Of a DNA stretch of 64,000 nucleotides, positions 44,528-46,193 are shown one piece after another; position 1 is the stretch's first letter, and each line of letters begins with the position of its first letter. Origin of the DNA: Escherichia coli (GTDB lineage Bacteria; Pseudomonadota; Gammaproteobacteria; Enterobacterales; Enterobacteriaceae); assembly GCF_024223415.1 (NCBI RefSeq), contig NZ_CP100500.1; one strand, written 5' to 3'. The position numbers are program-made.

Positions 44528-46193
44528 TAATGATGTGCCACATCCGGCATGGTATGCCGGATGTGGCGTATGCTGATAAGACGCGCCAGCGTCGCATCAG
44601 GCAACCGGCTTGGGTGTTAGATGTCGGATGCGGCGTAACCGACTTATTCGACCTACGGGGTGGAGCACTTCACAGCGGTGTAGGCCTGATAACACGCGTC
44701 AGCGTCGCATCAGGCAACCGGCTCGGGTGTTAGATGTCGGATGCGGCGTAACCGACTTATTCGACCTACGGGGTGGAGCACTTCACAGCGGTGTAGGCCT
44801 GATAAGACGCGTCAGCGTCGCATCAGGCAACCGGCTCGGACGTTGGATGTCGGATGCGGCGTAACCGCCTTATCCGACCTACGGGGTGGAGCACTTCACA
44901 GCGGTGTAGGCCTGATAACACGCGTCATGAACTGCACCCCAAATGTTGGACATAATCTGACATCTGAAGGTGCAGTTTATGAAACATTCATTTGAAGTAA
45001 AACTTGCCGCTGTAAATCATTACCTGGCCGGTCATGCAGGCATCATTTCTACGGCAAAACTCTTTCAACTTTCTCACACCAGCCTCTCACACTGGATTAA
45101 TCTTTTTCTTCTTCACGGTCCTCAGGCACTGGATTGCAGACACAAGCGTAGCTATTCTCCTGAAGATAAACTTTGCGTGGTTCTTTATGCTCTCGGGCAT
45201 TCTGAGTCTCTACCCCGGGTAGCTGCCCGGTTTAACATTCCCAGCCACAACATGGTTAAAAACTGGATAAAAGGCTACCGCAAATCTGGTAATGAGGCCT
45301 TTATCAGGCGCAGGAAGGAGAAAAGCATGACCCGTTCTGATGATACCCATGAAAACGAGGCAAACATGACGCCGGAAGAGATGAAGAATGAGCTGCGTTA
45401 TCTTCGCGCAGAAAATGCATATCTGAAAGCCATGCAGGAGCATCTCCTGGAAAAAAAGCGCCAGGAGCTGGAGAAAAAACGAAAGTCATCCAGAGCCTGA
45501 AGTGCGGACACTGCCAGTCTGACCTGTTAAAGGCTGCAGGGCTGGCCAGAAGCACGCTGTACTACCAGCTGTCACTGCAGAAGGCTAAGGACAAGTATGC
45601 TGATGTGAAACAGCTCATAGCCTCCATCTTCCATGAACACCGGGGATGTTATGGGTACCGGCGGATCCATTGTGAGCTTCAGAAAAGAGGTCTTAAGTTC
45701 AGTGGCAAAACGGTGCGAAAACTGATGCAACAGCTCGGCCTGAAGTCTCCTGTGCGCCTGAAGAAATACCGGTCTTACCGGGGAAATATGGGACTCGCTG
45801 CAGAAAATATCCTTCAGCGGCAGTTCAAAGCGGAAGCTCCCTGTGAGAAATGGGTGACAGATATCACCGAATTCAGGGCTGGCGGACAAAAACTGTACCT
45901 GTCCCCGATACTTGATTTGTTTAACGGGGAAATCGTGGCGTGGGAAACTGCCTGCAGGCCTACAGAGGAGCTGGTGAAGCGCATGTTAAATAAGGGGCTG
46001 GAAAGCCTTGCAGAAGGAGAAAAACCGCTGCTCCACAGTGATCAAGGGTGGCATTACCGGATAAAAAGTTATCAGTCTGCCCTGGCAGACAAAGGGTTAG
46101 TGCAGAGCATGTCGCGCAAGGGCAACTGCCTTGATAATGCGGTAATGGAGAATTTCTTTGGTCACCTGAAAGAAGAAATGTACTATCGCCGGG

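What the first reader, a model, noticed from the sequence alone, without database searches (positions are those of the whole stretch)
45452..45458. Programmed -1 frameshift heptamer A AAA AAG linking orfA and orfB of the IS
In the orfA frame (start 44979) the codons at 45450-45458 are GAA AAA AAG, giving the canonical X XXY YYZ slippery heptamer A AAA AAG. The -1 frame from this point is open through to the orfB stop at 46327, which would produce an OrfAB transposase fusion of roughly 450 aa. A second A-run (45474-45479) lies 16 nt downstream but is not in the slippery register.
Basis: partly seen in the sequence, partly recalled or inferred. Interest (0 to 1): 0.35.

Follow-up and report, generated by a model that had tools for sequence, protein, structure and literature searches.

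The report
Known IS1397 transposase frameshift site
The A AAA AAG heptamer is real and is the already-annotated programmed -1 frameshift site that joins orfA and orfB of the E. coli insertion sequence IS1397 into its 449-aa transposase, so the finding is correct but ordinary.

Summary
Codons GAA AAA AAG occupy 45450-45458 in the orfA frame (start 44979). The heptamer A_AAA_AAG is at 45452-45458. From there the -1 frame is open for 289 codons to the TAA at 46325-46327.

The element at 44928-46359 is a 1432-bp copy of IS1397 (IS3 family), inserted in a REP/BIME between mqo and eco. It is 100% identical to copies that RefSeq annotates as [quoted passage not shown]. The 449-aa fusion I predicted from a slip on this heptamer exists letter for letter in NCBI (WP_225343597.1).

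Sharma et al. 2014 (PMC4066793, Tables S4/S8) already list IS1397 orfA as cluster A_AAA_AAG_5. They give it an upstream SD-like sequence and a 38-nt hairpin with a 3-nt spacer, which I reproduced at 45462-45499. They call -1 frameshifting "safely inferred", not demonstrated.

Of 68 distant relatives with orfB in the -1 frame, 65 carry an in-register A_AAA_AAG or A_AAA_AAA.

One modest new detail: in the IS1397 clade the site lies 9 codons downstream of the position used by IS150 and most relatives.

Support for the hairpin from covariation is inconclusive. The verdict is already known, low interest.

The parts
44928..46359 (+). IS1397, a complete 1432-bp IS3-family insertion sequence
   Evidence: It is 100% identical over 1432 bp to copies annotated 'IS3-like element IS1397 family transposase' in many E. 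coli genomes. The ends are TG...CA.
44924..44927 (.). Left copy of the target duplication GTCA, in the central loop of a REP/PU
   Evidence: The flanks read ..ACGCGTCA|IS|GTCAGCGTCG. The uninterrupted unit at 44806-44822 reads GACGCGTCAGCGTCGCA. A 3-bp TCA duplication is an equally valid reading.
46360..46363 (.). Right copy of the target duplication GTCA
   Evidence: Read directly from the sequence.
44928..44952 (+). Left inverted repeat, TGAACTGCACCCCAAATGTTGGACA
   Evidence: It matches the reverse complement of 46335-46359 at 21 of 25 positions (read).
46335..46359 (+). Right inverted repeat, TGTCCAGGTTTTGGGGTTCAGTTCA
   Evidence: Read.
44979..45500 (+). orfA, 173 aa, with HTH domains and a leucine-zipper-like C-terminus
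   Evidence: Translation is. HTH_28 and HTH_Tnp_1 hits are.
45392..45500 (+). The 109-nt window in which both the orfA frame and the orfB (-1) frame are open
45437..45440 (+). SD-like GGAG (AGGAG at 45436-45440), 11 nt upstream of the heptamer; a putative upstream stimulator
   Evidence: Read. It meets the 6-17 nt rule of PMC4066793, and that paper scores SD = 1.00 for the IS1397 cluster. It is kept in 7 of 8 clade members. GGAG sits at the same 11-nt spacing in 37 of 51 IS150-type relatives.
45452..45458 (+). Slippery heptamer A_AAA_AAG in the orfA frame
   Evidence: It is invariant in 6 E. coli variants and in 8 clade members.
45462..45499 (+). Predicted 38-nt hairpin: CAGG/CCUG outer stem and CUGGAGA/UC-UCCAG inner stem, starting after a 3-nt spacer
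   Evidence: It is the minimum-energy structure. Folded alone it is -13.1 kcal/mol, ranking 24th of 1395 windows of 38 nt in the IS. It has the same size, spacer and first stem as Table S8 of PMC4066793. Covariation is inconclusive.
45474..45479 (+). Second A-run. It is not a canonical in-register heptamer, but the A_AAA tetramer at 45476-45479 is in register. It lies in the hairpin loop.
45458..46327 (+). The orfB-frame part of OrfAB. The full CDS is join(44979..45458, 45458..46327), 449 aa, with HTH_21 and rve (DDE) domains.

Best explanation
This is the programmed -1 ribosomal frameshift site of IS1397.

Most ribosomes translating orfA (44979-45500) terminate at TGA 45498 and make the 173-aa DNA-binding protein OrfA. 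A minority behave differently when the P and A sites hold AAA (45453-55) and AAG (45456-58). The two Lys-tRNAs slip back one base onto AAA AAA (45452-57), and decoding resumes at GCG (45458-60) in the orfB frame. The result is the 449-aa OrfAB transposase (...LLEKK-APGAGEK...), which joins the HTH and zipper part to the DDE (rve) catalytic domain.

Two elements probably raise the slip rate. One is the SD-like GGAG 11 nt upstream, pairing with 16S rRNA. The other is the 38-nt hairpin that starts 4 nt after the heptamer. The frameshift rate would thereby set the transposase level.

Shown here: the sequence anatomy, the identity with annotated IS1397, the exact match of the predicted fusion to database proteins, and conservation of the in-register heptamer in relatives. 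Inferred: that the shift is ribosomal, its efficiency, and the roles of the SD and the hairpin.
For: **Anatomy**
- An in-register A_AAA_AAG lies in a 109-nt overlap, with a -1 frame open for 289 codons.

**Identity with annotated IS1397**
- The predicted 449-aa fusion is found by exact look-up as WP_225343597.1 and others.
- One continuous match to NF033516, the IS3 family transposase model, covers residues 62-442 at 389 bits. The Pfam domain order is HTH_28...HTH_21-rve.

**Conservation in relatives**
- In 75 relatives from many phyla (OrfB 48-57% identical), 68 have orfB in the -1 frame.
- Of those 68, 58 have an in-register A_AAA_AAG and 7 have A_AAA_AAA. The other 3 have an in-register A_AAG tetramer.
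- All 8 members of the IS1397 clade (OrfA 44-61% identical to IS1397) have the heptamer at the same codon.

**Literature**
- PMC4066793 lists IS1397 orfA as cluster A_AAA_AAG_5, flagged [true] ('can be safely inferred'). It gives SD 1.00, hairpin 1.00, 38 nt, spacer 3 nt.
- The same paper measured A_AAA_AAG in E. coli at 0.29% without stimulators, 4.3% with the IS911 stimulators and 39% with the IS3 pseudoknot.
- A review states that the OrfA-OrfB fusion by -1 frameshifting is the common IS3-family strategy. It also attributes the shiftiness of this site to the single E. coli tRNA-Lys.

**Indirect evidence of activity**
- Identical copies sit at different chromosomal sites, for example yjjV/yjjW in AR_0085 against mqo/eco here. 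Some genomes hold up to 40 places. This implies recent transposition, and so a working transposase.
Against: - No experiment on IS1397 frameshifting could be read. The primary IS1397 papers are not held, and PMC4066793 says 'inferred'.
- Folding of larger windows is not exceptional, with z-scores of -1.7 and -1.5.
- The inner stem of the hairpin is not conserved in the clade, and covariation does not exceed shuffles (137 of 500).
- Both hairpin arms lie in doubly coding sequence, so their conservation is not independent evidence.
- The 3-nt spacer is short compared with the 6 nt listed for IS911, IS2, IS150 and IS600.
- A sequence of 7 A's cannot by itself exclude some contribution from RNA-polymerase slippage.
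Confidence: 0.88

Rival explanations
1. Transcriptional slippage. RNA polymerase inserts one extra A in the 7-A run (45451-45457), producing a minority of mRNAs in which orfA and orfB are in one frame. The fusion protein would be the same, but it would be made by standard translation.
For: - The run has 7 A's.
- Reviews note that a substantial number of IS elements use transcriptional slippage instead of ribosomal frameshifting.
- Some organisms slip productively on 8 A's.
- The protein product would be indistinguishable from the database sequence.
Against: - Slippage-prone length is about 9 A/T in most genomes, and the IS cases found had 9 A's, rarely 8 (PMC1088944).
- Most relatives have only 6 A's followed by G, always in the X_XXY_YYZ register (58 of 68). 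A polymerase would not need either that register or the G.
- The 3' G (AAG in the A site) is the feature that makes the heptamer most efficient for E. coli ribosomes.
- An SD-like sequence sits at the spacing known to stimulate ribosomal -1 shifts.
Confidence: 0.06
2. No fusion is made. orfB is expressed only from its own start (the first canonical start in frame is GTG 45605), and the heptamer is an incidental Lys-Lys codon pair.
For: - A 240-aa ORF from GTG 45605 exists, and AAGGA lies about 12 nt upstream of it.
- The string AAAAAAG alone is common in the window, at 20 copies.
- Gene callers on metagenomic relatives call orfB separately.
Against: - The orfB frame is open for 71 codons (45392-45604) upstream of GTG 45605.
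- The in-register heptamer is conserved in 65 of 68 relatives.
- The full-length IS3 transposase model aligns continuously through the junction.
- Naturally fused single-ORF relatives exist in Pseudomonas, showing that the fusion is the functional unit.
- In the IS3 family the fusion is the transposase.
Confidence: 0.03
3. The shift occurs mainly or additionally at the second A-run. This would be A-site-only slippage on the in-register A_AAA tetramer at 45476-45479, giving a fusion ...LEKKRQELEKK-TKVIQ... that is the same 449 aa in length but differs in the seven linker residues (RQELEKK instead of APGAGEK).
For: - The tetramer is in register and the -1 frame is open there too.
- Z_ZZN tetramers can support -1 frameshifting in E. 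coli.
- The E-K-K codons are conserved in 7 of 8 clade members.
Against: - It is not a tandem-slippage heptamer. The P-site codon AAA would re-pair with GAA.
- It lies in the loop of the hairpin, so no structure sits at stimulatory distance, and the next predicted hairpin starts about 22 nt away.
- In L092 the run is broken (GAG ACA AAA).
- Database annotation uses the first site's product.
Confidence: 0.03

Closest known systems
IS1397 (IS3 family, IS150 group) as annotated in RefSeq and catalogued in Sharma et al. 2014 (PMC4066793, cluster A_AAA_AAG_5)
   Same: It is the same element. The sequence is 100% identical over 1432 bp. The CDS carries the same 'programmed frameshift' note, and the fusion protein is identical. 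The SD-like sequence and the 38-nt hairpin with a 3-nt spacer are also the same. Insertion in a REP/PU matches what is described for IS1397.
   Different: Nothing differs except the insertion site (mqo-eco intergenic BIME) and two point differences from the commonest intact variants. One of these is A45492, against G in other intact copies, which changes a U-A pair to U-G in the inner stem.
IS150 frameshift cassette (insJ/insK of E. coli K-12)
   Same: It belongs to the same IS150 group and has the same heptamer A_AAA_AAG in the orfA frame, with orfB in -1 and 293 open codons after it. A downstream hairpin is predicted for IS150 (PMC4066793 Table S8).
   Different: In IS150 the heptamer is at ...MYL|KK. 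In IS1397 that position reads CTG AAA GCC, which is not slippery, and the heptamer lies 9 codons (27 nt) further on at ...LLE|KK. PMC4066793 scores IS150 as lacking an SD-like sequence, with a 48-nt hairpin and a 6-nt spacer. IS1397 has the SD, a 38-nt hairpin and a 3-nt spacer.
IS911 frameshift signal (IS3 group)
   Same: The heptamer A_AAA_AAG is combined with an upstream SD-like GGAG and a downstream structure. The two stimulators act together.
   Different: The IS911 structure is a three-way junction listed at 57 nt with a 6-nt spacer. IS1397 has a simple interrupted hairpin. The proteins belong to different IS3 subgroups.
E. coli dnaX tau/gamma frameshift signal
   Same: It has the same tripartite layout: an upstream SD-like element, A_AAA_AAG, and a downstream stem-loop. 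It relies on the same shift-prone tRNA-Lys on AAG. It is listed in the same table as cluster A_AAA_AAG_6.
   Different: In dnaX the shift truncates the protein to give gamma. Here it extends the protein into a second domain. The genes are unrelated, so the resemblance is in mechanism only.

Membership tests
IS3-family -1 programmed ribosomal frameshift cassette (orfA/orfB to OrfAB) | [quoted passage not shown] | tested here: met
   orfA is 44979-45500. The orfB frame is open from 45392 to 46327, and the frame relation is -1.
IS3-family -1 programmed ribosomal frameshift cassette (orfA/orfB to OrfAB) | A Z_ZZN or X_XXZ_ZZN slippery motif in register with orfA inside the overlap | tested here: met
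   A_AAA_AAG at 45452-45458 is the only in-register heptamer in orfA. This is the criterion stated in PMC4066793.
IS3-family -1 programmed ribosomal frameshift cassette (orfA/orfB to OrfAB) | The fusion product is a full-length IS3 transposase: an N-terminal HTH and a C-terminal DDE/rve domain | tested here: met
   NF033516 matches at 389 bits (cutoff 160) in one stretch covering residues 62-442. The domains found are HTH_28, HTH_21, rve and rve_2.
IS3-family -1 programmed ribosomal frameshift cassette (orfA/orfB to OrfAB) | [quoted passage not shown] | tested here: met
   GGAG at 45437-45440 lies 12 nt before base 45453. The published score for this cluster is 1.00. Its function was not tested.
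IS3-family -1 programmed ribosomal frameshift cassette (orfA/orfB to OrfAB) | A downstream RNA structure starting 4-10 nt after the motif (a usual stimulator) | tested here: inconclusive
   A 38-nt hairpin at 45462-45499 is predicted. It is -13.1 kcal/mol and falls in the top 2% of windows in the IS, and it matches Table S8. On the other side, only the outer 4-bp stem is kept in the clade, there is no covariation above shuffles, the z-scores of larger windows are about -1.5 to -1.9, and no pseudoknot partner was found.
IS3-family -1 programmed ribosomal frameshift cassette (orfA/orfB to OrfAB) | Demonstrated synthesis of the trans-frame protein by ribosomal slippage | not testable with these tools
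   This needs a reporter assay or protein sequencing. PMC4066793 calls it 'safely inferred' for IS1397.
IS1397 (the named element) | Near-identity to the reference element, and IS3-type ends (TG...CA) with a 3-4 bp target duplication | tested here: met
   It is 100% identical over 1432 bp to annotated IS1397 copies. The ends are TGAAC...GTTCA and the flanks are GTCA/GTCA.
IS1397 (the named element) | Insertion into a REP/palindromic unit of a BIME | tested here: met
   The IS interrupts the unit GCCTGATAA.ACGCGTCA|GCGTCGCATCAGGC inside a tandem array of 113-bp units. REP targeting by IS1397 is described in PMC1525189.
IS150-type frameshift site (position ...YL|KK) | The heptamer sits on the Leu-Lys-Lys codons directly after the conserved ENAY motif | tested here: not met
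   IS1397 has CTG AAA GCC at that position. Its heptamer is 9 alignment columns further on, with no gaps in that stretch.
Transcriptional-slippage IS cassette | A homopolymer run of about 9 (rarely 8) A or T in the overlap | tested here: not met
   The run here is 7 A's, and most relatives have 6. The threshold comes from PMC1088944.
Rfam frameshift-element families | A match to a curated covariance model | tested here: not met
   Only two chance-level matches to unrelated families were found (E = 1.8 and 4) in 44900-46400.

The most novel reading that the evidence does not exclude
The frameshift site may have moved within one IS group. IS150 and about 60 relatives from several phyla shift at ...ENAYL|KK. 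The IS1397 clade (E. coli, Pantoea, an Erwinia-labelled contig and metagenomic relatives) has lost that site and uses a new A_AAA_AAG 27 nt downstream.

The new site again has a GGAG exactly 11 nt upstream, and IS1397 has its own hairpin. This would be a natural example of turnover of a recoding site inside a dual-coding overlap, with the stimulators rebuilt around the new position.
Probability: 0.6. Interest if true: 0.22.

Novelty: already known. Interest (0 to 1): 0.08.

Why it matters
It matters little beyond correct annotation. With the site recognised, this IS1397 copy reads as an intact and probably active transposase gene rather than two fragments or a pseudogene.

The frameshift rate is expected to set how often this REP-targeting IS moves.

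The relocation of the site relative to IS150 is a small but clean case for people who study how recoding signals evolve. IS1397 could also serve as a compact test case with all three signals (SD, heptamer, hairpin), because its frameshifting seems never to have been measured directly.

Tried and rejected
- **Primary IS1397 papers.** PMC94167, PMC95333 and PMC169884 are not held. I could therefore not check whether frameshifting was mapped or a fused-frame mutant was used.
- **Thermodynamic significance of downstream folding.** z = -1.68 for 102 nt and -1.48 for 201 nt. For the 60 nt downstream in 52 contexts the mean z is -0.26, and only one is below -2. Energy alone does not single out a structure.
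- **Covariation test of the IS1397 hairpin.** On 8 clade members it does not exceed shuffles, at 137 of 500. RNAalifold proposed alternative pairings, including CUGG/CCAG enclosing the heptamer, without compensatory support. I do not build on them.
- **Pseudoknot.** No complement of 5 nt or more to the hairpin loop occurs in the next 140 nt.
- **Rfam.** There is no frameshift-element family match.
- **Promoter and terminator scan of the IS.** Nothing exceeds shuffles.
- **Heptamer as chance.** Rejected because of its register, its position in the overlap and its conservation.
- **ISKpn1.** It is named as the characterised relative in PMC1525189, but it was not recovered by my searches and so was not compared.

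Full report
**Observation**

The window reads G AAAAAAA G C at 45450-45459. orfA starts at ATG 44979 and translates to a 173-aa protein ending ...MQEHLLEKKRQELEKKRKSSRA*, with its stop at 45498-45500. In that frame the codons at 45450-45458 are GAA AAA AAG. The heptamer A_AAA_AAG therefore sits at 45452-45458 in the X_XXY_YYZ register, and it is the only in-register heptamer in orfA.

The -1 frame is open from 45392 to the TAA at 46325-46327. That makes a 109-nt overlap, and 289 open codons follow the heptamer. As stated, it is not a canonical heptamer in register, although the A_AAA tetramer at 45476-45479 is.

The bare string AAAAAAG is common in the window: 20 copies against 12.4 expected. 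The string alone therefore means nothing. An in-register copy inside the 109-nt overlap is expected only about 0.006 times.

**What the element is**

The stretch 44928-46359 (1432 bp) has 25-bp imperfect inverted repeats, TGAACTGCACCCC... and ...GGGGTTCAGTTCA, and is flanked by GTCA on both sides. It is 100% identical to copies in many E. coli genomes that RefSeq names 'IS3-like element IS1397 family transposase'. Copies covering at least 80% of the element occur in 1707 of 5426 complete genomes, with up to 40 places in one genome.

In strain AR_0085 an identical copy lies between yjjV and yjjW. The CDS spans IS positions 52-1400, which correspond to window 44979-46327.

The element interrupts a REP/palindromic unit inside a tandem array of 113-bp BIME units between mqo (42884-44530) and eco (46455-46943, minus strand). 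This fits the REP-specific insertion described for IS1397 (PMC1525189).

**The fusion**

Tandem slippage on the heptamer predicts ...QEHLLEKK followed by APGAGEKTKVIQ..., a protein of 449 aa. An exact-sequence look-up finds this very protein in NCBI (WP_225343597.1 and others), named IS1397 family transposase, in a cluster of 73 members.

It matches the NCBIfam full-length model NF033516 (IS3 family transposase) at 389 bits against a cutoff of 160. The match is one stretch covering residues 62-442 and runs straight through the junction. Pfam finds HTH_28 in the OrfA part and HTH_21, rve and rve_2 in the OrfB part.

**Comparative evidence**

A scan of one genome per species returned 80 loci from Bacillota, Pseudomonadota, Bacteroidota and others. 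OrfB identity to IS1397 is 48-57%.

| Group | Count |
|---|---|
| Loci with adjacent OrfA and OrfB matches | 75 |
| Of those, orfB in the -1 frame | 68 |
| In-register A_AAA_AAG | 58 of 68 |
| In-register A_AAA_AAA | 7 of 68 |
| In-register A_AAG tetramer (CTA AAG G) at the same codon | 3 of 68 |
| Pseudomonas loci with both parts fused in a single ORF and no slippery site | 5 |

The fused Pseudomonas loci show that the fusion is the functional unit.

IS150 of K-12 has its heptamer at ...RLMYL|KK, with 293 open -1 codons after it.

**A difference from IS150**

In IS150 and nearly all of these relatives the heptamer covers the Leu-Lys-Lys codons right after the conserved ENAY motif. IS1397 has CTG AAA GCC there, which is not slippery. 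Its heptamer lies 9 codons (27 nt) further on, at ...LLE|KK.

The same arrangement holds in seven relatives whose OrfA is 44-61% identical to that of IS1397. These are a Pantoea plasmid copy, six of the OrfA homologues found and their contigs; one contig is labelled Erwinia. A gap-free protein alignment of the C-termini confirms the offset. More distant OrfA homologues, at 40% identity or less, have the IS150-type YLKK. The IS1397 position is therefore most simply the derived one.

In both site types a GGAG lies exactly 11 nt upstream of the heptamer. It comes from ATG GAG AAT in the IS150 type, where it is present in 37 of 51 contexts, and from CAG GAG CAT in IS1397.

**Stimulators**

Upstream, AGGAG at 45436-45440 ends 11 nt before the heptamer. 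This falls inside the 6-17 nt range that Sharma et al. used because it was experimentally stimulatory. It is kept in 7 of 8 clade members.

Downstream, the minimum-energy fold gives a 38-nt hairpin at 45462-45499. It has an outer stem CAGG/CCUG and an inner stem CUGGAGA/UC-UCCAG, after a 3-nt spacer. Folded alone it is -13.1 kcal/mol. That ranks it 24th of 1395 windows of 38 nt across the IS, and the difference from neighbouring windows is 0.166 kcal/mol per nt.

This is the structure tabulated for IS1397 in PMC4066793 Table S8: 38 nt, spacer 3, first stem 4 bp, with both SD and hairpin present in 100% of 59 genes.

The independent support is weak:
- z-scores of larger windows are only -1.5 to -1.7.
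- Across the eight clade members the outer stem is retained with only A-U to G-U changes.
- The inner stem is not conserved, and covariation does not exceed shuffles, at 137 of 500.
- Both arms lie in sequence that codes in two frames.
- Among E. coli variants the heptamer and 5' arm are invariant, and the one arm difference (A45492G) keeps a U-G pair.
- No pseudoknot partner and no Rfam family were found.

**Mechanism**

The best-supported reading is classical tandem -1 ribosomal slippage. This rests on established knowledge of IS3-family elements and dnaX.

The two Lys-tRNAs on AAA AAG re-pair with AAA AAA, helped by the weak pairing of the single E. coli tRNA-Lys with AAG. In E. coli, A_AAA_AAG gave 0.29% frameshifting without stimulators, 4.3% with the IS911 SD plus stem-loop and 39% with the IS3 pseudoknot (PMC4066793 Table S3). 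A rate somewhere between these values is my inference for IS1397 and was not measured.

OrfA alone would be the DNA-binding regulator and OrfAB the transposase, as described for the family.

**Rivals**

- **Transcriptional slippage.** This is unlikely as the main route. The run is 7 A's here and 6 in most relatives, whereas productive slippage in bacteria is typically seen at 9, rarely 8 (PMC1088944). The strict register and the 3' G matter to ribosomes, not to polymerase.
- **Independent expression of orfB only.** This does not explain the 71 open codons upstream of GTG 45605, the conserved heptamer or the continuous model match.
- **A minor contribution from the A_AAA tetramer in the second A-run.** This cannot be excluded by sequence.

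**Known or new**

The finding is already known. RefSeq annotates the frameshift. PMC4066793 lists IS1397 orfA as cluster A_AAA_AAG_5 and flags it [true], with -1 PRF 'safely inferred'.

I could not read the original IS1397 papers, so I cannot say whether the site was ever mapped experimentally.

The only point I did not find stated in the papers I could read is the 27-nt displacement of the site relative to IS150, with a GGAG at the same spacing. This is a modest observation.

**Verdict**

It is an ordinary, already-annotated feature of a known insertion sequence, and the interest is low.

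Noticed in passing
window 44573-44927 and 46348-46476: There is a tandem BIME array: three 113-bp units (95-100% identical) directly upstream of the IS, and a fourth, more diverged unit (73%) directly after it. The IS sits in the central loop of one palindromic unit, with a GTCA (or TCA) duplication.
   Followed up: partly
window 44925-44938 and 44969-44982: An inverted repeat (13 of 14 complementary) pairs the left end of the IS with the stretch that contains the orfA ATG (44979). In transcripts reading in from outside, it could hide the orfA start codon (pair I3). This was not tested.
   Followed up: no
window 46273-46320: The most stable 38-nt windows in the IS lie near the 3' end of orfB. 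The sequence is ACTCAG-C-CCGGTA-GAA-TACCGG-ACTGAGT, at -18.3 kcal/mol. It falls within the codons for ...LSPVEYRTEY. Its role is unknown.
   Followed up: no
window 45435-45467: Three mutually complementary copies flank the heptamer: CAGGAG (45435-40), CUCCUG(G) (45444-50) and CCAGGAG (45461-67). Either an upstream hairpin (-6.6 kcal/mol) or a helix enclosing the heptamer in its loop (-10.1 kcal/mol) can form. RNAalifold also picks the CUGG/CCAG pairing in 6 of 8 clade members. No function is claimed.
   Followed up: partly
L002, L003, L004, L014 (Pseudomonas asuensis) and L038 (P. oryzihabitans): These relatives have the OrfA and OrfB parts in one continuous ORF of about 460-478 codons. There is no slippery site at the homologous position (CTC AAA CAA/CGA). 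They are naturally fused transposases that need no frameshift.
   Followed up: partly
L037 (E. coli SCPM-O-B-8794), locus 1450-2370: This IS1397 copy has a 193-bp internal deletion of IS nt 469-661, which corresponds to window 45396-45588. The deletion removes the whole frameshift window and places orfA in frame with orfB. The copy is also interrupted further downstream.
   Followed up: partly
L034, L067, L070 (Pseudomonas spp.): At the IS150-type position these relatives have CTA AAG GAG. That is an in-register A_AAG tetramer followed by GGAG, in place of a heptamer.
   Followed up: no
E. coli genomes, hits H25, H38, H39 (L083-L085): Many IS1397 copies in E. coli, including those sampled from the common 97.6%-identity band of the frameshift window, are annotated as pseudogenes (frameshifted or with an internal stop). 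One example has a 5-bp deletion at the position of window 45542-45546. All of them still carry the intact heptamer.
   Followed up: partly
P0017 (OrfA variant, 156 aa): This OrfA homologue is 89% identical and lacks 17 residues (GNEAFIRRRKEKSMTRS) between the second HTH and the zipper region.
   Followed up: no
L089-L094, orfA stop region: In most clade relatives the orfA stop TAG overlaps a GTG in the orfB frame (..A TAG TGC..). Gene callers use it as the orfB start, which suggests possible coupled re-initiation of a separate OrfB. IS1397 has GTC ATC CAG at the equivalent place and lacks this start.
   Followed up: no
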